Translations under genes and position numbers: made by a program | The notes under the pieces: generated by a model | Database searches by the model: none | Told to the model about the DNA's origin: nothing | Seen by the model: only the letters and a program-made list of their open reading frames with translations | DNA from: Naegleria gruberi | Lineage: Eukaryota | Direction: 5' to 3' (one strand) | Length of the DNA: 64,000 bases | Assembly: GCA_000004985.1 (NCBI GenBank) | Contig: GG738846.1 | Part shown: piece by piece, positions 10,516 through 43,190 of the stretch | Position numbering within the stretch: the first letter of the stretch is position 1 | How the letters are laid out: every line of letters starts with the position of its first letter

Positions 10516-13500
10516 ATGTCATCAACGGATGAAACAATTGAGAAAGAACAACCAATATCCAATAACAATGAAAATACAATTCATCAAACAATCGATGTTG
10601 ATGATTGGAACTATCAACTCATAGAAAGAAAACTAGATAAAATAATTGAGGTGGTAAGTCTTGATGTTAAGTTCCGATATGTTTAACCATCCTATGAAGT
10701 TTTGGAAAATTGCAAAAACAGACACTCCCATCACTGACCCAATATCAAAGAGTGAACTATCAAATTTAGAAAAGAGAATTTCTACATTATTAAATCATAA
10801 TGAACAATATGGTCATATTCTCTCAAACATTTTCAAGAATATCAAGACAAGAGTCTCAAAACATAGCACTTGTTTTCAATTTGACCAATTTTTTGGTTAT
10901 ATGGAGAGAGTAGCATTCCATTTCACTTTGGTTTGGAGGAAGGAGGAATGGTTGAATTTCTTAATGTGTTTGTTGGCTTCCATCACAAAAAAAACATCTA
11001 ATTTCAAAAGCTTGCGAACACAAAGAACAAACAATCTAATCGGAAAGCTGTTTGATGAGAAGAAAATTTATTTTAGAGAAATAGATGACAAGGATCTCGT
11101 TAAATTTCTCAACAACAATGACATTAATGATACACTTTCGGATGACATTTATTGTTTGAATGAAATACCTAGTTTCAATGATTTGACTGGAGAGGAGATT
11201 AAATTAAGAGAACTGGATGAAATCCATCCAATATTGACTTTTACCAGGTTGATGGATCTTGGCAAACACTTTAATGTAAAGGGGGAAACTAAATATCAGA
11301 TTGGATTAAAAATTAAAAAAGTGGACAAACATTTTGAAAATTTGCTTCGCCTCTCATTACCTGAATCTGAACAGTTGCAAAATGTAGAATTACAACAAGG
11401 ATACGACAGCGAGGAAGAAATGATAATAGATGTCAATAAGAGGCCTAAGAGCTTTCTAATTATTGGAGATTCGTGTATGTTCATTCTTTCATGTTATATT
11501 TTAATTTTTAATTTAAACCCTAGTCTCTGGAAAGGGTCATATTGGAAAACAAATTTCAAATCACTACAATAGTGTAAGATTGGACCTTGAGGAGATGGCC
11601 AGAGAAGAATTCAAATCAAAGAGCTCAATGGGATTACAGGTAAGTGAGGTTAAAAATAACATTAACACAATTTTACAATTAATAGATTGAAAAGTATCTC
11701 AAGGAGGAACGAGCCATTCCAAACTCTTTACAAATTGAATTGTTTCAGAAATGGATTTCCTCTGACTATATTATGGATAGAGGCTATATTTTGGAGTGGG
11801 GCACTATTGACTCTGAGATTAGAAGCAGCATTGTACAGGCTCTCCAAGACAACCCTGCTAAATATGTAGTTAGCCTTCAAATGAATCCTGAAGAATCAAA
11901 GAATAGAAAATCGGAAATTATTTCAAAAATTACATCAAGAATTAGTGAGATAGAGTCACTTATTGATCAGGAGGATAATAAAGAAAGGCAAGAGCAAGAG
12001 GAGGAAAGAAGGAAACAAGAATTAAGGGAGGAAAAGAAGAAATTGATGCAAACTCAAAAATTGGAAAAGAAAAAAAAGGAACCATCAGAAGATGATGATG
12101 GAGAGAATGCTGACGAGGAGGAAACAGAAGAAGAACCTGAGGAAGAACCTGAGGAAGACGAGGAGGAAGAAGAACCAGAAGAAGACGAAGACGAAGAAGT
12201 AAGAGAGGAGAAGGAGAAGCAAAAAGCACAAATGAGAGAAAATCAATTTCTTGAAAGGTTAGAATAGTAAGTGTGATTGAATTCTTTCTTTAACTGTTAT
12301 TAGTTTTTACTTGAAAAAGAAAGCTTACCAAGAACAAGCAGATTTGGAACCACTTTCTAACACTATCCAGATAGCCAAAGAGCATTGTAAATTTTTAACA
12401 ATAGATACCTCATCTCAAAGTTTTAGAGATGCCTTCTTAATAGTTTTGCAGAAAATTGGAAGATCTACCCCTAATATTGTTGCAATTAATCCTGTCATTA
12501 TTGAAACCCCAGAAGAGGAACCTGATTATGAAGGGATAATAACAGCTCAAATTGAAAAAGGATATAAATGGAGTCGATGGAAGAAGTATTGTCCTGTTAG
12601 ATTTCATATTGATAGAGCGATTGTGGAAGGAAATATTCCAGCATTGTACAGAGGAAGACTGTATTTACTCTCCACAAAAGAATATCAAAATGAGTTTATC
12701 AACAATCCTAGATATTACCTAAAGAAGTTACCTGAGAAAAAGCAAAGAGTTTTATTTGTTTGGAACGGTGAAATTGGAGAAGAAATAATAAGAGAAGGTA
12801 AGTTTTAATATTTCGCACATCATTCTAACCAAGGATATTAAGTGTCTAAGTTTTACAAATCAGAAATTGTTAGCCTAGATCAATATGCAAAATATGCAGC
12901 CAGCCTCCCTCCTCCACCTATAAAAGAAAAGAAACTCGCTAAAAAGGTTACTATTGAGGGAGATGATGAAGATGAAGCCCCTGAGGAAGAACCTGAGGAG
13001 CAAGAAATTATGGAAGAAAATGTATTACCAGAAACTTCAGAAGATCTTCAAATATCCATCTTTGTTAGTGGAGGTTCTTCATCTTATGAAAATAGCTCAG
13101 TAATGAAATCTATTCTAGATTCTCCTGCCGAATCTCCACTCACCTCTATTGTCATTCTCACAAAGGAAAAATCCGAGCAAGAGGAAGGAGAAGAAGAACA
13201 TGCTACCGAGGAAAGTGCTGCAGTCGATGATGAAGAAGATAACAATGAAAATGAGGAGCAGGGCGAATCTGATCCAAAAGCAATAGATCCACCAGTTGAA
13301 AAGAAGGAAGTGATAGACTTTGTAAAGCTAGTCAAAGAAAAAGAGGAGTATTTACAAGCCAAAAAAATCAAATTTATAGAGGTTTCCTTTACTAACATAT
13401 GGGAAGGTGTATTAAGCGTGAGAAAACAAGTTGATCCTTTTCTAGTTGAGGCTGCAGCAGCTTCTATTGAACTACCAAAGGAAGACACAGATCCTTTCGA

Positions 13501-33553: not shown

Positions 33554-34255
33554 ATGTGCCAACATCATCAAATGATACACTCAATGATGCATTCATCATC
33601 GTCGGGAATGGACCATATGATGCAAAATTCCAAACCAATGATGATGGATATGGGTGGTAACTCTACTCATCACATGTTAATGTATTTCTCACCACAATCA
33701 TTCGAACCATTTGTTAAATATATTCTTTTTCAAAATTGGAATGCGGATAATGAATGGAAATATGCCCTCTCAGTAATTGGAATCTTTTTAATTGCCTTCT
33801 TTAATCAATTTATTTTCTTTGCTCTCCATGTTCAAGTCGACCGAAAGAAGAGAAGAATTTTGCACTATGTAATTTCATATATTTGTAAACCACTCGGATT
33901 CTTTTTGGAAATGTCTATAGGGTATCTACTCATGTTAGTTTCAATGACCTATAATTTTGGACTCTTTATGGCAATTGTGATGGGCAACTTTGTTGGCTAT
34001 ATCATCTTTAACATGATTTGTACAAGCATGTTGGAAGGACATTATCATCAAGATCAAGTTGAAGAAGAGGAAAAGGAAGAGGAAGTTGAGCATGAATGTT
34101 GTAAGAAGAGAAAGGAATATGAAAAGATCAATGATACTGATGTGAAACGTTATGATGGATTTACATCAACTTCTATGAATATTCAACGTAATAATTTTGA
34201 TGATTTTGTAGAAGGTGCTAGTCCTTCTGTTAGACATCTTCACGATGAATATTAA
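33554..34255 (+). CDS. CTR: Ctr-family high-affinity copper transporter, 233 aa.
   Basis: Met-rich N-terminus (MMHSSSSGMDHMM...MMMDMGG) and three TM helices with the signatures MxxxM (MLVSM) and GxxxG (GNFVG). Confidence 0.75.
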   Translation: MCQHHQMIHSMMHSSSSGMDHMMQNSKPMMMDMGGNSTHHMLMYFSPQSFEPFVKYILFQNWNADNEWKYALSVIGIFLIAFFNQFIFFALHVQVDRKKRRILHYVISYICKPLGFFLEMSIGYLLMLVSMTYNFGLFMAIVMGNFVGYIIFNMICTSMLEGHYHQDQVEEEEKEEEVEHECCKKRKEYEKINDTDVKRYDGFTSTSMNIQRNNFDDFVEGASPSVRHLHDEY

Positions 34256-34295: not shown

Positions 34296-34697
34296 CTACC
34301 TATTAATTTCTATTTTGTGATGAATTGGATTTAATTTTAAATTATCAAATAAAATCTTGTAACGAATCAACCAAATCAGATTGGCCATTTGCTTGACAAT
34401 GAATGGACTCACTCTATCCTTCAAGGTGACAGTGAAAAAATTGGTCACATAGGATATAACTTGATAAGTCATTGAAGGTTTTGTGGAGAGAAGAACAGAG
34501 GAATGTTTGGCATTGGAGTGCATTGTCAAATCACAAAGTAACATGTTGGAAAAATACAATTCCGTATTGAAGAGTGCATAATGTGCTGGAAAAGTTTCTT
34601 TAATAGTATTGATAAAACTAAAGTCTTTCCGAACCTCTATTGTGTTCAAAGAAGAAGAAGGTACTATTGATGTATTATTATTATCCTTCACATTCAT
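34296..34697 (-). CDS. Hypothetical 133-aa protein, possibly with a roadblock/longin-like fold.
   Basis: Single ORF with a compact alpha/beta-type hydrophobic pattern. No diagnostic motif recognised. Confidence 0.3.
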   Translation of the reverse strand: MNVKDNNNTSIVPSSSLNTIEVRKDFSFINTIKETFPAHYALFNTELYFSNMLLCDLTMHSNAKHSSVLLSTKPSMTYQVISYVTNFFTVTLKDRVSPFIVKQMANLIWLIRYKILFDNLKLNPIHHKIEINR

Positions 34698-34799: not shown

Positions 34800-36944
34800 T
34801 TATTCCAAGAAAGATGGCTTTGGCATTTGTTTGCTCTTTTTAAAATTGCCAATTAAATCAGAAAATCTAGAAAGAGAGGCCTTATCAGAACCTTTTGGTG
34901 GATTGGCCAGTAAATGAACTTCAATAAATTCTAGAATCTTGGCAAATTGAGCCTTATAGATTTGATGCATCTTGTAACCAGCAATTCTCAAGAATGAATC
35001 TAAAATTTCCAATGTAAACATTGTTGGACGTGAGTTCAAGAAGGCAGCTAGCCATTCCCAACCCTTCTCAATACCATACTTGTGACCTGGTGGATTATTT
35101 TGAATAATCATGGCATATATTGTAATAATATCATTCATTCTATTCATGTATTGAGATTGACTTTCCATTTCGCCATCCTCTTCCTTGAAGCCAAGTTTTT
35201 TCTTCAAATCAGAAGCATCAGTAACTTCATAAGGGAAGTATGGAATTGTAAAGATGCAATTGGTATGAATGTATCCAATCACAGCATCCAAAATTTCAGG
35301 AGAATCATTCATCAATTCAGATGTTACCTCAATGAATGGTAACACCTTCTTCAAATCACTAGTTTGACTTGCTGCTTGATCCACAATGGTTCTAGCATAA
35401 AAGTACAAACAAAAGTAGAATACATCCTTCTTGACCTTTTGCTTGGACATTATTTGATTGATTTCCTTTACAATTTCTCTCTGGTTAGTTTCTGTTATTC
35501 TGTTAATGGTCTTGTTAATGAGCTTTTTGGCAGCATCCATTTCTGGTTTTAGTTGGGGATCCATTCTCTTTTGGAACGATGCATACATTTCCTCCATTCT
35601 GTCAACATAAATTTTGGCAATAACGTAGGTTTTTGGTCTGGTAAAGTTTGGAACGGTAAGGGTTTTCTTAGGTCCAGAATATGGATTAACAATGGAAATG
35701 TCACTCTTTTCGGCTGGAGTTTCTTCTGCAGTACCGATACTATTTGGTTGTTGAGGTTTGATAGGAGAAACGTTAATTTCAGCTGGGGCAGTGGCAGCGA
35801 TGGCAGCTTGTCTTTTCTTTTCTTCTTCTTCGGCAGCTTTTCTCCTTTCTTCTTCGAGTTTTTCACGAGCAATTCTCTCTTGTTCTGCTTTTATCTTGGC
35901 GATACGTTCTTGCTCTGCCTTAATTTTAACAAGTCGTTCTTGTTCTACCTTTCTAATTTCTTCATTTTCACATTCGACAAGTTTGAGAATTTCTGCAAGT
36001 TCCTTTTCGATGTTTTGTCTAGAATTTTGCTTTCTAATATGGAGTTCTTCAAGTGCTTTCTTAGTGTCCTGTTGATGAATAATTGGTGTCTGGGTTGTTT
36101 GAATTTTGATTGATGTAGGTATAGATTTTTTGGAGTAAATTTCAGAGAATTCTTCAAGAGTCGATTCTACTGGAATAATTCTTCTCTCTGGTCTGGAAAT
36201 ATCAATAGGGATAGGTGGAATGTTGTCATCTTCGTCTTCCAAATCAAGGCCATACCGTCCTGAAGAGTAGATATTGGTAGGAGTGACTGCTACTGGTTCA
36301 TAAAATTTTACATTCATATTAATATTATCACAGTCTTTTAGTGATTCTGATAGATTGGCTACCAAGTCCACTTTTCTCTTCTGTTCTTCAGAAATTAAAT
36401 CTAATGGAGCGGATCCAAGTTTCCTCTTTTCCACATGATTGATAGATTTTACCAATATTGGTTTAATAACTCGGGATGGTGTGATGTGTTCTAAATCCTC
36501 ATCCGATTGCTGATTTTTCCTAATATTTTCTCCATCTTGATTCAATTTTTCTATTGTATTATTATTATTTTCTGAAGTATTGGTATTTATATTTACTCGC
36601 TTTTTTGGTCTATCCTTGTTGATTTCCTTTCGTGATAATAAATAATTATTTACTAGATTACTAATTTCCGTTCCTTTAGTAAGTAGTGAAGTTGTTCCAA
36701 CAACAATAAATATCATTAAAATGGAGACCCAACCATTTGTTGTTCCAAAAAGCAGAGAGGAAAATAAGTCATTCTCCGTGTTGTTTTTTTCTTCATCACC
36801 CGAGTTGGTTTTTAAAATTTCTTCTTGGTCATCCATGAGAACAGACGAACATTCAGCCATTTCCGACAATAAGAAACCTCCTAAACACGATGCTATAACA
36901 AATATTAAACCAATGACGAAGGATATTCTAACATGTTGTTTCAT
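34800..36944 (-). CDS. GLE1: GLE1-like mRNA export factor, with an unusual N-terminal two-TM segment and a long coiled coil, 714 aa.
   Basis: The C-terminal Gle1 domain (DVFYFCLYFYARTIVDQA...NCIFTIPYF...GHKYGIEKGWEWLAAFLNSRP...FLRIAGYKMHQIYKAQFAKILEFI) is collinear with human GLE1 (CPYSVPFY...GWRWLAQILNM). The N-terminal hydrophobic helices FVIGLIFVIASCLGGFLL and VSILMIFIVVGTTSLL are in the same uninterrupted ORF. Confidence 0.7.
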   Translation of the reverse strand: MKQHVRISFVIGLIFVIASCLGGFLLSEMAECSSVLMDDQEEILKTNSGDEEKNNTENDLFSSLLFGTTNGWVSILMIFIVVGTTSLLTKGTEISNLVNNYLLSRKEINKDRPKKRVNINTNTSENNNNTIEKLNQDGENIRKNQQSDEDLEHITPSRVIKPILVKSINHVEKRKLGSAPLDLISEEQKRKVDLVANLSESLKDCDNINMNVKFYEPVAVTPTNIYSSGRYGLDLEDEDDNIPPIPIDISRPERRIIPVESTLEEFSEIYSKKSIPTSIKIQTTQTPIIHQQDTKKALEELHIRKQNSRQNIEKELAEILKLVECENEEIRKVEQERLVKIKAEQERIAKIKAEQERIAREKLEEERRKAAEEEEKKRQAAIAATAPAEINVSPIKPQQPNSIGTAEETPAEKSDISIVNPYSGPKKTLTVPNFTRPKTYVIAKIYVDRMEEMYASFQKRMDPQLKPEMDAAKKLINKTINRITETNQREIVKEINQIMSKQKVKKDVFYFCLYFYARTIVDQAASQTSDLKKVLPFIEVTSELMNDSPEILDAVIGYIHTNCIFTIPYFPYEVTDASDLKKKLGFKEEDGEMESQSQYMNRMNDIITIYAMIIQNNPPGHKYGIEKGWEWLAAFLNSRPTMFTLEILDSFLRIAGYKMHQIYKAQFAKILEFIEVHLLANPPKGSDKASLSRFSDLIGNFKKSKQMPKPSFLE

Positions 36945-38633
36945 TTTTTCAAAAAATTTGTAAATAATAATTTAATTTCTTGCCCTTTAATTTTGTTGAA
37001 ATAATGTTAGATTGAGTAATTTTCATCATTTTGCTCCAATTGAACATGCACCATTAAAAATCAACAATATATATGAAGCCATTGTTAGGCTCATTTGGAC
37101 GGTGTTACTTTACACTTTTATAATAACGTAACACTCAAGATATCAAAAACCTCAATAACAAATGAACCACCCTCCTCACTCGATACTCACTCAACAATAC
37201 TGTTTGAAGCAGCAGAAGATGTTAATGAATGGGAGATATAGTGTAATTCTCATGGTAGTATTAGTCATTGTAATGTGTAACGTGTGTATGAAATCAATTT
37301 AATTGGTGCTTTACATAATCACCATCCCACCAATGTTATTGAGTGGAGTGGAGTTGTGTTTATCAATCAAAACATGACCATACATTTTAATACTGCATTG
37401 GCAATTAGGGATGATGCAACTATTGTGTTCTATGTGGATAAAGAGGAAAAACTAAATCTTGATTATTACATTCGAAAGAGGTGATCTAAAGATTGGATCA
37501 AGAGTTCAGTTTCTTAGTTTGAGTATGTTTAGAGGGACACAAAAAACTCCAGCTCAAACAGCTTTCAATACTGAAGATTGGGGATTCTTTTTCAGATACT
37601 ATTGATGAGAATCATGCAGTTAATACACTCAACCTTAACTCTGTAACAGTAATGGAAAGTAGAAGATTTCAAAGTGGATCCCCAACTTTGGCCATTTCCA
37701 ATCTCAATTCGCAGAGATTGTCATTTTGAAGGAGGGAATTCAATTTCTGCAACTGTTATTGACTAAACCTTTGAGTTGGTGTCCTGTCTCCCCTTGTATC
37801 CATTTCAAATACATCATTTGATAATTCAATGGCAACAAAGTCTGGTATTGCAGTACTCAACAATTTACAAAGGAAAGTTGTAATGGATATAACAGATTCT
37901 AGGTTTACTAATATATTTGGAGTTTTAATTGCGTCAGATAATATCGTTGAAAGGTGCTATGGCTCTCCAGATTTGACTTTCTCCCTTATTCACATGTCAC
38001 ACACAGTGTATCGGCTCTCTTTTGATAAACAAAGTATTCCTGACAATTCCAATATATATACAAAATTGAGTCTTTTTCATTTTGGAAGCTTGAACGAAAC
38101 TGTTTCATTCTCCAACATCAGACTTCTGTTATAGAGGAATAACAAAGTCTAACTATATGTTCAACACAACTTTTAACTATTGGGGATCAAATGTTGACAA
38201 GTCAAAGAATTTGGAACCTTGGACAACTTATTCGCTTATATCTGAAAAACTTTCTCCAACCACTGCATTTTTATTTGTCCCTTACTACTTGGAGTCCAAA
38301 TGTACATGATATATTGGAATATATATTCCACCCCTCAAGTCAACTCATCCTGTTCATTCTTCGGCAGAATTGGAAAATCAGTATGTGTGGATGGATTGTT
38401 GTTGTGTCTTTCTGTTGCAGTTTTTGTTGTGATTATTTCAGTTGTATTGGTTTTGCTTTCTATAATGTTGGAGAAGAAAGAGAAGTAGTTATTTGGCTAT
38501 TAACTAACCGTATGCACATAAATAATCAGTGATATCAATATTAGCAATTCATAACAATTTAATGGATTTAGCACTTGCTTGGTACTTTTTGGAGTAAAAA
38601 GTAGTGATTAATTACAATACATTTTTTTGTGTC

Positions 38634-41600
38634 TTAATCCTCTTCATCAGATGGAATAAATTCGTCACCATCATCTTCGCCATCCTCTGGTTCACTGGCT
38701 TCACTATCAGAAAGTTCAATTATTTCCTCCTCCTCTTCTTCTTCATCCTCAGATTCCACCTTCTTATTGGCTCTGGTTGTCCTAACAGGTCTACCTCTGG
38801 CTTTAGGCTCTTCTTTATCTTCTTCAGCATCAGAAACAACAACTTCTTCAGCTTTCTTCTTCAATTCAAAAAAGTCTGTAATACTGGTTTTCCTCTTTTT
38901 GGTTGGTGGTTTTGTTTCCCTGGTCTTTATAGGGGCAGTGATAAGTTCCTCATCCTCTTGTTTTTCGTCACTCTGACTGCTACTGGCAGCTGGTTGGGCA
39001 GGAGTTGTTGCAGCAGAAGTTTTCCTCTTGACTCTCTCTGCAAATGAAAGTTCTTCCTCAGGTTCTTCATCTTTTTTTTCCTCCGCAAGTTCTTCATTCT
39101 TTGTGAAGGATAATTTGGTTTGCTTGGCAGCACTTCTATTCGATTTCACTGCTTTTGGTTTTGCTTCTTCTTCTTCTTCTTCATCATCGTCTTCATCGTC
39201 TTCATCGTCTTCCTCAACTTGTTTTTTGGTAGCTGGTTTTCTGCCACGTTTTGGTTTTTCATCGTCTTTGTCATCTTTCTTTTTAGCTGCAGGCTTTCTT
39301 CCTCGTTTTGGCTTCTCTTCCTTTTCTTCATCTTCCTCTTCGTCAGATTCTTCCTTTACTACCTTTTTGGCAGCTGGTTTTCTGCCACGTTTTGGCTTTT
39401 CTTCCTTTTCTTCTGCATCGTCTTCATCCTCTTCTTTCTTTACAGCTGGTTTTCTACCACGTTTTGGCTTTTCATCATCGTCAGCTTGTTCTTCTTTCTT
39501 TACAGATGTAGCCCTCTTTCTGGTGGTCTTGACCTTGGCTGTTGACTCATTTACGACAATGTCAGGTCTTAGTTTGGAAGTGGCACGATAACCCTTAGGT
39601 CTTGGAATTTTACCATGTTTTCCTCTTTCCTTTTCAATTTTCTTAAGGTAAAAGTCAAACTCCTTTTGTTCCTTTTGCTCATATGAATCTAACTTTTCCA
39701 AAAATTCGTCCAACTCAGAAAGCCACATTGTTTCAGGTTTAGTATTTTCCAACTGTTCAACTTCCTTTACCTTTTCCTCTTTTTCTTTTTCTAATTTCTT
39801 TACTTTCTCAACAGTTAATGACCACAAAGGCATGGACAAAAGATAATTGTATCCGTCAGTAAGATCTGCAACATCCTTTTCTTCATCCTCTTCTTCCTCT
39901 TCTTCCTCGTTTTGGATATCTCCTGCTGCTGCAATCTTCTTTTCCTTTGGGAATGAAGAATACTTCTTTGTTTTGAGTTCTTTTAACAGGTCTGCCTTCT
40001 TTCTCTTTTTCACTTGGATGGTTTCGTTAATAACTTCCATTATAAATCTGACCTTGTTGGAAAGGATTTCTAATTCCTTCTTCATCTTTTCTAGCATGTA
40101 TTCTTTTCTTTTGCCATAGAATTTCAATCTAATTGGATAAAACTCCTTCAAAATGTCCAAAACAGTTTCATATTCTTTGATACCACCCTCTTCAGAAAAT
40201 AAAACCATATTACTAGTAGAGAATTTCTTAAACAATTTAAAGTAGTCATATAGCCCAGCGTCTTCAGCATCTTTCATTTGCTTATCAGTCATTTTAACTG
40301 TGAAAGAGACAGTTACATCAGTGTGATTTTCTCTGAAATCGTCTACTTGTTGAGCTTCCATCATTTTTTCCAGACGTTCTTTGAATGATTCTGTCCATAT
40401 CCTAATTGGTAACTCACTGATATCAAGTGTATTATCATCGATTTTCTCAATGACACCCTTGGTTTGCCATTTGGTTGGAGCTAATCTTTCAATAATACCA
40501 TCAAAGCCTTTATACCATGGATGGAACTCCTTAGCTTCTTCTCCCTTAATCAGTGCCTTGAGTCCTTCGACAATATCAACTGGATTATAGGTTTCAATGT
40601 TTGTAGACCAGGCAGTACCAATACCTTCGGATCCATTTACTAACACCATTGGGAGAATTGGAACGTAAAATCTTGGTTCTATTGATTGACCGTCATCATC
40701 CAAATATTCAAGTACTGGATCATCAGCCTTAGGGAAAATGTATCTGGTAATTTCTGATAATTTTGTAAAGATATATCTGGGACTGGCAGAATCCTTTCCT
40801 CCTTGAAGACGAGTACCAAACATACCACCTGGATAAAGCAAGTTGATATTGTTGCTACCAACAAAATTTTGAGCCATATTTACAACTGTACCATTCAAGC
40901 TGTCTTCACCATGATGGTAGGCTGATTGTTCTGAAACGTAACCGGCAAGCTGAGCAACCTTGATTTCCTTTTTGAGGTTTCTCTTGAAACAACTGAATAA
41001 GATTTTTCTTTGACCAGGTTTTAAACCATCAACAATACTAGGAATAGATCTCTTACAGTCAGCCTTAGAGAAGAGAATCAATTCCTTATCAATAAAGTCT
41101 GTATATGAAATTTCCTTCTTGGAGTGATCAATGTAGGTACCTTCTTGATGATTATTTAGCCATTCCTTTCTTTCATCTGTGGCAGCCTTGGAAAATACAG
41201 AGGTGATCTTTTTATCACAATCAGTATCATACTTGAATCTCTTTTGGTGGAGAGACATATTTGAAAAGTATTCCTTTGCTTCTGGTGCTGTTGAAGTACC
41301 CAAACCCTTGTAGTATTTAATAGTCCAACCTTTTGTATCTGAAAGTCCTTCTTTCCATGTTTCATATTCAGGAATACTGAAAAAGGTTACAGCTTTCTTG
41401 GTACGATTGTTAGTTGCTTTTACGATTGGTGTTATGAATTCTTTCAAAAATCCAGGTATTTTGAGTAAGCTTGGCCAGAATTTGTGAATAAAATTAATGA
41501 GTAAACCTTTGATGTGTGAACCGTCGTGATCTTGATCAGCCATGATCATAATACTACCATATCTGAGGGATTTGATATCCTCCTTTGTGTATGTCTTATC

Positions 41601-43190
41601 AAATTTCAACCCTAAAATTTTAGCAAGAGTACTAATTTCTTCATTCTTTACAACCTTATCCAGTTTACAATCTCTTACATTGAGAGGTTTTCCCTTTAGT
41701 GGGAATACTCCGTAGTAATCTCTACCAACTACACTCAAACCACCAACAGCAAGAGCTTTAGCAGAGTCTCCTTCTGTTAAAATCAAGGTACACTTTTCAG
41801 AATTTTTACTACCAGCATCGTTAGCATCATCCAATTTAGAAATACCAGTCAATCTTGATTTTTTAGTTCCTGATTTCTTATTGAGGGCTTTTTCTGACTT
41901 GAAATCAGCATACTTCAATACTGCTTCTGAAGCCATTTTAGTGACCTTCTTTAAGAATGCTTCATCTAATTTACATTTAGAACCAAAATCTTTCATAGAT
42001 GTGGTAAGAGTTTCCTTAGATTGAGAATCAAAAGATGGGTTAATAATTAGAGAACTGACAAATACCCATAATTGATTCTTAATGTAGGCAGGTTTGATAG
42101 TGTTATTTTTTTTAACCAGTGCCTTTTTGATATTATCTGAAACTTGATTTACGATATGATCAACATGTTTACCGCCTTTGGTTGTGCAAATACTATTGAC
42201 AAAACTGACTTGTTGCATGGAACCTTCACTCAATGTTATACCAACTTTCCATCTCTTACCATCTTCAAAGTAATGAATTTCCTTATCTATTGTGTAAAGT
42301 TTGACATAATCTTTAAATGTTTTCATTCCTGTAATCTTTTTTCCATTCAAATAAATACCAATACCAGTTTTAAGAGTACCTGCCAAATCATAAACTCTCT
42401 TTTTTAATAGGGAAACAATATCATCATCTAGTTTATCCATTCCAAATTTAGAAAGATCAGGATAAAAAGTAATTTCTGTATAACTTTCAGCTTTTGAACA
42501 TGTTGTAATTTTAGGTTCTTCCTCTTTTTCCATATTTTGAGTCCAAGTTTGTCTAAACTTTTTCTTTTCCTCAGAGTCTACTGTTTCAACAATAAACTTT
42601 TCGGAAAATATGTTTGTAAGTTTTGCACCATAACCATTTCTACCACCTGTAACTCTTTTTTGTGTATCATCAAAATTACTACTAGTTAACAAGTGACCAA
42701 AAATCATTGTTGGCACATAAATTTTGTGTTCGGCATGGATCTTGACAGGAATGCCTGCACCATTATTGTAGACTGATATTTCGTTTTGTTCGGGATTGAT
42801 TGTAACTTTAATCTTGTTGCAAGTTTCATCTCTAACAGAGTGATCGGCAGCATTGACTAGAATTTCATCAAAGATTTTATACAAGGCTGGAACAAATTTG
42901 ATAGTTTTCATCTTCATTCTTTTGTCTTCATCATCCCAAATCCACATATCCTCACCTTCTTGCATATTGACTGACCCAACATAGGTATCAGGTCTCAAAA
43001 GGATTTGTTCACGAAGACTTTTCTTTTGATAAATTTCTTCGACAGTCTTGTTCTTGTTGTTGTTAGATTCATCATGATCAATGAATTCAACCTCATCGTC
43101 TGATTCTTCGGCAGCAGAAGCTTCATCATCCGATTCTTCTTTTCTCTTTCTTTTTGGTGCAGCAGCTGGTGCTTTCTTCTTTGGTGGCAT
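38634..43190 (-). CDS. TOP2: DNA topoisomerase II, 1518 aa, intronless.
   Basis: GHKL ATPase (EILVNAADH, GRNGYGAKL), TOPRIM (LILTEGDSAKALA, MIMADQDHDGSHIKGLLINF) and the WHD/catalytic Tyr region. Start at MPPKKK (ATG 43190) rather than the track's upstream extension. The basic/acidic C-terminal tail has four PKRGRKPAxKK repeats. Confidence 0.92.
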   Translation of the reverse strand: MPPKKKAPAAAPKRKRKEESDDEASAAEESDDEVEFIDHDESNNNKNKTVEEIYQKKSLREQILLRPDTYVGSVNMQEGEDMWIWDDEDKRMKMKTIKFVPALYKIFDEILVNAADHSVRDETCNKIKVTINPEQNEISVYNNGAGIPVKIHAEHKIYVPTMIFGHLLTSSNFDDTQKRVTGGRNGYGAKLTNIFSEKFIVETVDSEEKKKFRQTWTQNMEKEEEPKITTCSKAESYTEITFYPDLSKFGMDKLDDDIVSLLKKRVYDLAGTLKTGIGIYLNGKKITGMKTFKDYVKLYTIDKEIHYFEDGKRWKVGITLSEGSMQQVSFVNSICTTKGGKHVDHIVNQVSDNIKKALVKKNNTIKPAYIKNQLWVFVSSLIINPSFDSQSKETLTTSMKDFGSKCKLDEAFLKKVTKMASEAVLKYADFKSEKALNKKSGTKKSRLTGISKLDDANDAGSKNSEKCTLILTEGDSAKALAVGGLSVVGRDYYGVFPLKGKPLNVRDCKLDKVVKNEEISTLAKILGLKFDKTYTKEDIKSLRYGSIMIMADQDHDGSHIKGLLINFIHKFWPSLLKIPGFLKEFITPIVKATNNRTKKAVTFFSIPEYETWKEGLSDTKGWTIKYYKGLGTSTAPEAKEYFSNMSLHQKRFKYDTDCDKKITSVFSKAATDERKEWLNNHQEGTYIDHSKKEISYTDFIDKELILFSKADCKRSIPSIVDGLKPGQRKILFSCFKRNLKKEIKVAQLAGYVSEQSAYHHGEDSLNGTVVNMAQNFVGSNNINLLYPGGMFGTRLQGGKDSASPRYIFTKLSEITRYIFPKADDPVLEYLDDDGQSIEPRFYVPILPMVLVNGSEGIGTAWSTNIETYNPVDIVEGLKALIKGEEAKEFHPWYKGFDGIIERLAPTKWQTKGVIEKIDDNTLDISELPIRIWTESFKERLEKMMEAQQVDDFRENHTDVTVSFTVKMTDKQMKDAEDAGLYDYFKLFKKFSTSNMVLFSEEGGIKEYETVLDILKEFYPIRLKFYGKRKEYMLEKMKKELEILSNKVRFIMEVINETIQVKKRKKADLLKELKTKKYSSFPKEKKIAAAGDIQNEEEEEEEDEEKDVADLTDGYNYLLSMPLWSLTVEKVKKLEKEKEEKVKEVEQLENTKPETMWLSELDEFLEKLDSYEQKEQKEFDFYLKKIEKERGKHGKIPRPKGYRATSKLRPDIVVNESTAKVKTTRKRATSVKKEEQADDDEKPKRGRKPAVKKEEDEDDAEEKEEKPKRGRKPAAKKVVKEESDEEEDEEKEEKPKRGRKPAAKKKDDKDDEKPKRGRKPATKKQVEEDDEDDEDDDEEEEEEAKPKAVKSNRSAAKQTKLSFTKNEELAEEKKDEEPEEELSFAERVKRKTSAATTPAQPAASSSQSDEKQEDEELITAPIKTRETKPPTKKRKTSITDFFELKKKAEEVVVSDAEEDKEEPKARGRPVRTTRANKKVESEDEEEEEEEIIELSDSEASEPEDGEDDGDEFIPSDEED
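39220..39500. repeat. Four imperfect ~72-84-bp tandem repeats inside the TOP2 C-terminal coding region.
   Basis: Each encodes EEKPKRGRKPAAKK (AT-hook-like GRKP core) flanked by acidic runs. They show as the repeated AAGFLPRFGF peptide in the antisense track ORF 39028..39591. Confidence 0.6.

What the first reader, a model, noticed from the sequence alone, without database searches (positions are those of the whole stretch)
34800..36944. The Gle1 homologue carries two N-terminal transmembrane helices in the same ORF
The C-terminal about 300 aa are unmistakably Gle1, which is a soluble nuclear-pore-associated mRNA export factor. Yet the continuous 714-codon ORF begins with two strongly hydrophobic 18-20-residue helices before the coiled coil. 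If real, this would be a membrane-tethered Gle1, possibly anchored in the pore membrane, which is not the textbook architecture. It may instead be a mis-joined 5' exon.
Basis: partly seen in the sequence, partly recalled or inferred. Interest (0 to 1): 0.5.

Follow-up and report, generated by a model that had tools for sequence, protein, structure and literature searches.

The report
Naegleria Gle1 with membrane-hairpin N-terminus
A single-exon gene of the amoeba Naegleria gruberi joins a genuine Gle1 mRNA-export factor to a species-specific N-terminal extension containing two membrane-grade helices, so this normally soluble nuclear-pore factor may be membrane-tethered here, although its nearest relatives lack the extension and no transcript or protein evidence could be obtained.

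Summary
Window 34800-36944 (- strand) is one uninterrupted 714-codon ORF, identical to the public Naegleria gruberi model XP_002682922 / NAEGRDRAFT_61988. Residues 437-704 are a bona fide Gle1 C-terminal domain (Pfam E=1e-42; TM-score about 0.8 to human and yeast Gle1), preceded by a 105-residue coiled coil. Residues 7-27 and 64/71-89 are membrane-grade hydrophobic helices, far outside the range of 149 other Gle1 relatives. A mis-joined exon is ruled out: there is no splice-site motif, frame 0 scores as coding from codon 1, and ATG1 has the genome's typical A-run start context below a very AT-rich stretch. Flanking charges predict an N-in/C-in hairpin that leaves the Gle1 module on the cytosolic or nucleoplasmic side. 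However, residues 1-227 have no homologue anywhere. The nearest orthologues (N. lovaniensis, Willaertia magna) lack the extension, with stop codons just upstream of their starts. Met210 would give an ancestral-like soluble protein. Best reading (about 0.55): a young, lineage-specific membrane-tethered Gle1. Main rival (about 0.25): a soluble product from Met210, with a neutral or minor 5' extension. Pore-membrane location is untested. It is a new variant of a known kind, of moderate interest.

The parts
34800..36944 (-). Complete single-exon ORF, 714 codons plus stop (stop codon 34800-34802); N. gruberi NAEGRDRAFT_61988
36942..36944 (-). ATG1 in the context gaaaaaATGa, preceded by 90 nt of GC 0.19; the in-frame TAA at 36972-36974 stops any 5' extension of the ORF
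36864..36926 (-). Hydrophobic helix 1, aa 7-27 ISFVIGLIFVIASCLGGFLLS (KD 2.51; dGapp -1.75). A signal-anchor, or possibly a cleavable signal peptide
36756..36863 (-). Acidic loop, aa 28-63 (2 K/R, 11 D/E; contains an N-N-T sequon). Predicted lumenal; disordered in AF2
36678..36755 (-). Hydrophobic helix 2, aa 64-89, core WVSILMIFIVVGTTSLL (KD 1.98; dGapp +0.22 for the 19-mer, -1.04 for the 17-mer)
36318..36677 (-). Basic juxtamembrane stretch (aa 90-120: 8 K/R, 3 D/E; includes the NLS-like DRPKKRV), then a low-complexity, mostly disordered linker up to aa 209
36315..36317 (-). Met210, the first Met after helix 2. Candidate internal start that would give a 505-aa soluble Gle1 with ancestral-like layout. 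Its context attaatATGa has no A-run
36222..36263 (-). SGRYGLDLEDEDDN, aa 228-241: a short R[YF]G[ILV]+acidic motif shared with Gle1 of Willaertia, an environmental heterolobosean-like sequence, Stenamoeba, chytrids and a plant. It marks the start of the ancestral part of the protein
35802..36116 (-). Long coiled-coil helix, aa 277-381 (pLDDT about 86-90)
34833..35636 (-). Gle1 C-terminal domain, aa 437-704 (PF07817; fold match to 6B4F and 3PEU)

Best explanation
This is a real, intron-less N. gruberi gene. A complete ancestral Gle1 (RYG motif, coiled coil, C-terminal Dbp5-activating domain) has acquired a lineage-specific N-terminal extension of about 210-227 residues. The extension opens with a two-helix membrane hairpin: a short basic N-tail, TM1 (aa 7-27), an acidic 36-residue lumenal loop, TM2 (aa 64/71-89) and a basic juxtamembrane stretch. 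Translated from ATG1, the hairpin would insert into the ER and nuclear envelope with both ends on the cytosolic or nucleoplasmic side. A largely disordered spacer of about 190 residues would then let the coiled coil and Gle1 domain reach Dbp5 at the cytoplasmic face of the pore, or at ER-bound ribosomes. Shown here: ORF continuity, Gle1 identity and fold, TM-grade hydrophobicity, charge asymmetry, start-codon context, absence of the extension in relatives, and a duplication within the N. gruberi lineage. Inferred only: use of ATG1, membrane insertion, location, and function as a tether.
For: The ORF is continuous and identical to the public model. The chance of 209 stop-free codons is 1e-8. 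The frame-0 coding score turns positive exactly at codon 1 and stays positive only in frame 0: 0.117 per codon for aa 1-100 and 0.157 for aa 101-209, against a coding mean of 0.217 +/- 0.147 and an off-frame mean of -0.108. ATG1 has the A-run context seen in 11 of 24 long ORFs of the window and follows the most AT-rich 90 nt nearby; ATG210 has neither feature. There are no donor-like splice motifs. Both helices are TM-grade and are outliers among 149 Gle1 relatives. AF2 predicts both as helices separated by a disordered loop. The charge pattern obeys the positive-inside rule for an N-in/C-in hairpin, the only two-helix topology that keeps Gle1 functional. Two such segments arise by chance in only 0.1-1.7% of cases. 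P0001 is the only full-length Gle1 found in N. gruberi and is the slower-evolving of the two paralogues: 43% versus 37% identity to N. lovaniensis, and the two paralogues are sisters with bootstrap 1.0.
Against: Residues 1-227 have no detectable homologue, so purifying selection cannot be shown. The N. lovaniensis (620 aa) and Willaertia (647 aa) Gle1s have no hydrophobic N-terminus. They have stops 2-5 codons upstream of their ATGs and only 438 and 203 bp of upstream intergenic DNA. The coding score for aa 1-100 (0.117) lies below the 95th percentile of the off-frame null (0.163), so it does not discriminate on its own. TM2 is only marginal on the Hessa scale, at +0.22. If TM2 does not span the membrane, the charge pattern would put Gle1 in the lumen. 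Met210 would yield an ancestral-like soluble protein. No transcript, proteomic or localisation data could be reached.
Confidence: 0.55

Rival explanations
1. The working Gle1 of N. gruberi is a soluble protein of about 505 aa made from Met210, using an internal transcription start or leaky scanning. The upstream 209 codons would be a young 5' extension that is neutral, rarely translated or only a minor isoform. Its hydrophobic segments would be by-products of T-rich sequence rather than a selected anchor.
For: Orthologues lack the extension. Met210 sits 20 residues before the conserved RYG motif, matching the orthologues, where the motif lies 2-116 residues from the N-terminus. There are no homologues of aa 1-227. 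One TM-grade segment appears by chance in 6-13% of stop-free stretches in this genome. The coding score is weakest over aa 1-100.
Against: 209 in-frame stop-free codons have p of about 1e-8. Frame-0 coding score is positive throughout, including 0.372 per codon in the aa 28-63 loop and 0.157 in aa 101-209. ATG1, not ATG210, has the typical start context and the AT-rich upstream region. Two TM-grade segments with a correct positive-inside pattern are unlikely by chance, at 0.1-1.7%.
Confidence: 0.25
2. Same gene and same start, but helix 1 is a cleavable signal peptide (n-region MKQHVR, h-region ISFVIGLIFVIA, small residues A-S-C before a possible cleavage site). The mature protein would be a type I single-pass membrane protein, with a short acidic lumenal N-terminus, helix 2 as the only anchor, and Gle1 in the cytosol.
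For: The sequence has a basic n-region, a hydrophobic core and an ASC/LGG small-residue stretch. Basic residues follow helix 2.
Against: The uncharged hydrophobic run is 21 residues long. From general knowledge of signal sequences, that is long for a signal-peptide h-region and typical of a signal anchor. No dedicated predictor (SignalP, DeepTMHMM) was available.
Confidence: 0.1
3. Artefact: an assembly or annotation chimera, or a mis-joined or unspliced 5' exon, fuses an unrelated small membrane-protein gene to Gle1.
For: The architecture is unique among 150 Gle1 representatives. The window locus shares no neighbours with the N. lovaniensis or Willaertia Gle1 loci.
Against: There is no stop, frame shift or non-coding spacer anywhere between helix 2 and the Gle1 part. 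Codons 90-330 score as coding in frame 0. There are no splice-donor motifs.
Confidence: 0.05

Closest known systems
Canonical Gle1 (S. cerevisiae Gle1, human GLE1; PDB 3PEU, 6B4F)
   Same: Homologous C-terminal domain by sequence and fold. A long coiled coil lies N-terminal to it. The expected role is as activator of the DEAD-box ATPase Dbp5/DDX19 (established knowledge, summarised in PMC5170558).
   Different: Canonical Gle1 is soluble and is held at the pore by protein-protein contacts. This protein has an extra 210-227 residues with two TM-grade helices. The yeast IP6-contacting pair K377/K378 aligns to T-N here.
Gle1 of Naegleria lovaniensis (XP_044544449, 620 aa) and Willaertia magna (KAL9653037, 647 aa)
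   Same: Nearest relatives, with 39-43% and 36-39% identity over the C-terminal domain. Willaertia also shares the RYG motif.
   Different: Neither has a hydrophobic N-terminal segment, and there is no room or ORF for one upstream. The genomic neighbourhood differs.
MtgA/Bqt4 tether for Gle1 in Aspergillus nidulans (PMC5170558)
   Same: Gle1 is held at a nuclear-envelope membrane through a transmembrane anchor, which is precedent that membrane tethering of Gle1 is biologically tolerated.
   Different: There the anchor is a separate tail-anchored inner-nuclear-membrane protein, acting in trans and only during mitosis. Here the anchor would be in cis, N-terminal, two-helix and constitutive. There is no sequence relation.
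Integral pore-membrane nucleoporins (e.g. yeast Pom34, a two-TM protein with both ends on the pore or cytosolic side; trypanosome Nup65 with a C-terminal TM helix).
   Same: Short membrane anchors attached to otherwise soluble-type nucleoporin modules; lineage-specific and poorly conserved; hairpin topology as in Pom34.
   Different: The Pfam scan of the full protein matched no known family over the N-terminal region. Pore localisation is untested. No known Pom carries a Gle1 domain.

Membership tests
Gle1 family (PF07817) | Sequence match to the GLE1 C-terminal domain above the curated threshold | tested here: met
   E=1.2e-42, 146.4 bits against a cutoff of 24, aa 449-674 covering profile positions 2-249 of 250; PDB GLE1 chains at E=6e-20
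Gle1 family (PF07817) | All-helical Gle1 CTD fold (MIF4G-like) | tested here: met
   AF2 pLDDT above 90 over aa 437-704; Foldseek top 13 hits are all Gle1 CTD structures, with TM-score 0.67-0.81 (target-normalised) and E down to 2e-13
Gle1 family (PF07817) | Coiled-coil region N-terminal to the CTD | tested here: met
   Continuous helix aa 277-381 with pLDDT about 86-90; homologues align across this region
Gle1 family (PF07817) | Stimulates Dbp5/DDX19 ATPase; located at the cytoplasmic face of the pore | not testable with these tools
   Needs biochemistry and imaging
Yeast-type IP6-dependent Gle1 mechanism (a feature of the mechanism, not a criterion for family membership) | Basic IP6-contacting residues equivalent to yeast K377/K378 (and H337) | tested here: not met
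   Yeast lvKKcp aligns to ihTNci, and yeast vvHqa aligns to ivDqa. The K377/K378 equivalents are FN in P0002, SK in N. lovaniensis and KR in Willaertia. The residue numbers and their role are recalled from the 3PEU literature. The H337 position was anchored by the H337R difference between chains 3pev_B and 3peu_B; K377/K378 were placed only by recognising the 'lvKKcp' motif and are not independently anchored
Integral pore-membrane nucleoporins (Poms) | One or more transmembrane segments | tested here: met
   By prediction only: KD 2.51 and 1.98; dGapp -1.75 and +0.22; helices in AF2
Integral pore-membrane nucleoporins (Poms) | Homology to a known Pom family (Ndc1, Pom152/gp210, Pom33/TMEM33, Pom34, Pom121, TMEM209) | tested here: not met
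   The Pfam scan at E<=1 finds nothing meaningful in aa 1-330. No homologues of aa 1-307 were found, though that word-based search has low sensitivity
Integral pore-membrane nucleoporins (Poms) | Residence in the pore membrane | not testable with these tools
   Needs localisation or fractionation

The most novel reading that the evidence does not exclude
[quoted passage not shown] That would be the first case of the Dbp5-activating mRNA-export factor being anchored in cis by a transmembrane hairpin. It would have arisen recently, after a lineage-specific gene duplication, by capture or de novo birth of a 5' coding extension. It would imply that attachment of the export platform to the pore can be rewired from protein-protein contacts to a lipid anchor within a single genus.
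Probability: 0.3. Interest if true: 0.6.

Novelty: new variant of a known kind. Interest (0 to 1): 0.42.

Why it matters
Gle1 is treated as a soluble, shuttling factor that is held at the pore by other nucleoporins. A Gle1 anchored in cis to the membrane would show that shuttling is dispensable in at least one eukaryote. It would also add a natural experiment on how the cytoplasmic mRNA-export platform is fixed to the pore. The extension appears confined to N. gruberi, so it would also be a datable case of a membrane anchor being added to an essential housekeeping protein. If the extension proves unused, the result is a caution about trusting first-ATG gene models in AT-rich protist genomes.

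Tried and rejected
1. Word-index protein searches with the full protein, the Gle1 domain and the N-terminal 307 aa. These returned only the self hit, or only paralogue P0002, or nothing. Searches did not recover the window protein itself, so their negative results carry little weight.
2. Exact-sequence lookups for contigs encoding P0001 and P0002. Neither is on record, so no Logan or RNA-seq contigs and no view of the paralogue's locus were obtained.
3. Two metagenome scans, one with the N-terminal 300 aa and one with a Naegleria/Willaertia Gle1-domain profile. Neither gave a confirmed relative.
4. tblastn of aa 1-330 against the N. lovaniensis and Willaertia loci, and against the rest of the window. 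Nothing was found.
5. Literature searches for gene and protein identifiers, for Naegleria nucleoporins and for membrane-anchored Gle1. There is no description of this architecture; only comparative-genomics tables list Gle1 presence.
6. Other hydrophobic Gle1 hits were rejected. P0131 is a multi-TM protein that matches only the coiled coil. P0103 (a Tetraselmis transcriptome ORF) has a Pro/Phe/Leu/Cys-rich stretch that looks like a translated retained intron. The remaining hits are buried helices inside the Gle1 domain.
7. A mis-joined exon or intron was rejected.
8. An upstream exon was rejected on the basis of the in-frame stop, the typical start context, and negative coding scores in all three frames upstream.
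9. Rfam and Pfam scans of the 1.7 kb ORF-poor stretch upstream found nothing.
Full report
**What is there.** The window comes from Naegleria gruberi. The ORF at 34800-36944 (- strand, 714 codons) is 100% identical over its whole length to EFC50178.1 / XP_002682922.1 / UniProt D2UZL9, locus tag NAEGRDRAFT_61988. The public gene model is therefore simply this uninterrupted ORF. An in-frame TAA sits 10 codons upstream of the ATG. On the same strand the neighbours are a topoisomerase II-like ORF upstream (38634-43190, named from reading its translation) and a 133-aa ORF downstream. A Ctr copper-transporter gene lies on the other strand.

**The Gle1 part.**
- Pfam GLE1 (PF07817) matches aa 449-674 at E=1.2e-42.
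- Human and yeast Gle1 chains in the PDB match at 6e-20 and 1e-10.
- An AlphaFold2 model built on 50 homologues gives pLDDT above 90 for aa 437-704 and a single long helix at aa 277-381, the coiled coil.
- Foldseek places the model on human, yeast, Debaryomyces and Chaetomium Gle1 CTD structures, with target-normalised TM-scores of 0.67-0.81.
- Membership of the Gle1 family is not in doubt.
- One difference from the yeast mechanism: the IP6-contacting pair in the yeast motif "lvKKcp" aligns to "ihTNci" here. The equivalents are FN in the paralogue, SK in N. lovaniensis and KR in Willaertia.

**The hydrophobic N-terminus.**
- Kyte-Doolittle 19-residue averages peak at 2.51 (aa 7-25) and 1.98 (aa 64-82).
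- On the Hessa biological scale (values recalled from the 2005 paper), the best 19-mers score -1.75 kcal/mol for helix 1 and +0.22 for helix 2. The 17-mer WVSILMIFIVVGTTSLL in helix 2 scores -1.04.
- The best 19-mer of 149 other Gle1 relatives has a median of +6.15, and only two reach 0.6 or lower. One of those is a multi-TM protein that matches only the coiled coil. The other is a Tetraselmis transcriptome ORF with what looks like a translated intron.
- AF2 predicts helices at 4-35 and 71-105, separated by a disordered loop.
- Charges are asymmetric: N-tail +2/0, loop aa 28-63 +2/-11, and the 31 residues after helix 2 +8/-3, including DRPKKRV.
- By the positive-inside rule this is an N-in/C-in hairpin. 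It leaves the Gle1 module on the cytosolic or nucleoplasmic side, the only arrangement in which it could meet Dbp5.

**Is it more than chance, and is it coding?**
- From the local base composition, 209 codons stay stop-free with probability about 1e-8, and the first 100 codons with probability 1.5e-4.
- A codon-usage score trained on 25 long ORFs of the window turns positive in frame 0 exactly at codon 1. It is negative in all frames upstream and in the two other frames throughout.
- The per-codon score is 0.117 for aa 1-100, 0.157 for aa 101-209 and 0.267 for the Gle1 domain. Genuine coding windows average 0.217 +/- 0.147. Stop-free off-frame stretches average -0.108, with a 95th percentile of 0.163.
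- The first 100 codons are therefore compatible with coding but are not proven coding by this score alone.
- Because AT-rich genomes readily encode hydrophobic runs, I measured the background. One TM-grade segment per 100 residues occurs in 6-7% of composition-matched stop-free simulations and in 22 of 172 real off-frame stretches. Two or more occur in 0.1% of simulations and in 3 of 172 stretches.

**Start codon and introns.**
- ATG1 lies in "gaaaaaATGa". An A-run before the ATG is seen in 11 of 24 long ORFs of this window.
- The 90 nt upstream of ATG1 have the lowest GC of the neighbourhood, 0.19.
- Met210 ("attaatATGa") has neither feature.
- The sense strand of the ORF contains no GTAAG, GTATGT or GTGAGT.

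**Relatives.**
- An exhaustive HMMER scan of 1.84 billion representatives found 808 relatives, and the best 150 were inspected.
- The nearest are a second N. gruberi protein (P0002, 245 aa, domain only, 61% identical), N. lovaniensis (620 aa), an environmental sequence (602 aa), another environmental sequence (649 aa) and Willaertia magna (647 aa).
- None of these has an N-terminal hydrophobic segment.
- I fetched the N. lovaniensis and Willaertia loci. Their ATGs are preceded by in-frame stops 2-5 codons away. The upstream intergenic spaces are 438 and 203 bp, and tblastn with aa 1-330 finds nothing there.
- Pairwise BLAST shows significant similarity only from aa 407-435 onward. The one N-terminal trace is SGRYGLDLEDEDDN (aa 228-241) against SNRYGIDLNDLSDS in Willaertia.
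- That R[YF]G[ILV]+acidic motif also occurs 2-116 residues from the N-terminus in Gle1 of an environmental heterolobosean-like sequence, Stenamoeba and two chytrids, and further in (residue 301) in a plant. It marks the start of the ancestral protein.
- Everything before about aa 210-227 is therefore an addition with no known homologue.
- A neighbour-joining tree on the domain puts the two N. gruberi copies together (bootstrap 1.0) and N. lovaniensis next (0.82). The window copy is the slower-evolving one, at 43% versus 37% identity to N. lovaniensis.
- The duplication thus happened in the N. gruberi lineage, and the window gene is the only full-length Gle1 seen in this species.
- The 64-kb window shares no gene other than Gle1 with the 22-kb orthologue loci. 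Those two loci both have cytochrome c near Gle1. The window copy may therefore sit at a derived position.

**Most likely mechanism (confidence about 0.55).** Translation from ATG1 produces a hairpin-anchored Gle1 in the ER and nuclear-envelope membrane system. A largely disordered spacer of about 190 residues carries the RYG motif, coiled coil and CTD to Dbp5. The basic, NLS-like stretch after helix 2 might bias the protein toward the nuclear envelope, but that is speculation.
- Shown here: sequence architecture, hydrophobicity, topology logic, start context and lineage restriction.
- Inferred only: expression of the long form, membrane insertion and location.
- Precedent that Gle1 can work from a membrane tether exists in trans. 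In Aspergillus nidulans the tail-anchored inner-membrane protein MtgA/Bqt4 holds Gle1 at the envelope during mitosis (PMC5170558).

**Rivals.**
- Soluble product from Met210, with a neutral or minor extension (0.25). This fits the lack of the extension in orthologues and the position of the RYG motif. It fits poorly with the 1e-8 open frame, the frame-0 coding score and the start contexts.
- Cleaved signal peptide plus a single TM helix (0.10). The functional outcome would be the same.
- Assembly or annotation artefact (0.05). There is no spacer, stop or splice signal to support it.

**What could not be done.**
- No transcript or peptide evidence was reachable: the N. gruberi genome is absent from the contig index.
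- No paper mentions the gene.
- No paper describes Naegleria pore proteins beyond presence/absence tables.
- Both metagenome scans were empty.
- The paralogue's locus could not be read.
- No dedicated TM or signal-peptide predictor was available.

**Verdict.** The membrane-tethered reading is the best-supported one but rests on sequence logic alone. It is weakened by the extension being confined to one species. It is a new variant of a known kind and of moderate interest.

Noticed in passing
Not in the window: N. gruberi protein EFC42215.1 / NAEGRDRAFT_69924 (P0002), on another contig of 379,849 bp: A second, faster-evolving Gle1 paralogue annotated as only 245 aa. It starts at a Met that aligns to Met469 of the window protein, so it lacks the first CTD helix, the coiled coil and any N-terminus. 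It may be a truncated model or a decaying duplicate. Its locus could not be fetched.
   Followed up: partly
window 35256-35261 (-), aa 562-563 (T-N in IHTNC): The positions equivalent to the yeast Gle1 IP6-binding residues K377/K378 are T-N here, F-N in the paralogue, S-K in N. lovaniensis and K-R in Willaertia. Yeast H337 aligns to Asp. This suggests progressive loss of the IP6 pocket within Naegleria.
   Followed up: partly
window 36222-36263 (-), aa 228-241: A short motif, R[YF]G[ILV] followed by an acidic run, recurs in the N-terminal region of Gle1 in Heterolobosea, Amoebozoa (Stenamoeba), chytrids (Batrachochytrium, Synchytrium) and a plant (Primulina). It is probably an ancient docking motif; I found no name for it.
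   Followed up: partly
window 36945-38633: A 1.7-kb stretch between Gle1 and the topoisomerase II-like gene with no ORF above 113 aa in any frame, no Pfam hit for its three largest + strand ORFs, no Rfam hit, and negative coding scores on the - strand. This seems unusually long for a non-coding gap compared with the rest of the window.
   Followed up: partly
L001 (N. lovaniensis) 1706-2522 and L002 (Willaertia) 12235-12567: A cytochrome c gene lies near Gle1 in both N. lovaniensis (about 7.5 kb away) and Willaertia (adjacent). Nothing from either 22-kb locus except Gle1 matches the 64-kb window, so the window copy may have moved.
   Followed up: partly
window 33554-34255 (+) and 34296-34697 (-): A Ctr-family copper transporter (Pfam E=1.5e-14) with a Met/His-rich N-terminus, and an adjacent 133-aa ORF with no family match, lying only about 100 bp downstream of the Gle1 stop.
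   Followed up: no
P0103 (Tetraselmis astigmatica MMETSP transcript), aa about 170-230: Apart from a false hit, this is the only other Gle1 relative with a TM-grade segment. The segment is a Pro/Phe/Leu/Cys-rich stretch that looks like a translated retained intron rather than a real anchor.
   Followed up: partly
tool behaviour: Word-index searches with sub-fragments of the window protein did not return the window protein itself, although it is in the database. Negative results from that tool for the N-terminal region therefore carry little weight.
   Followed up: no
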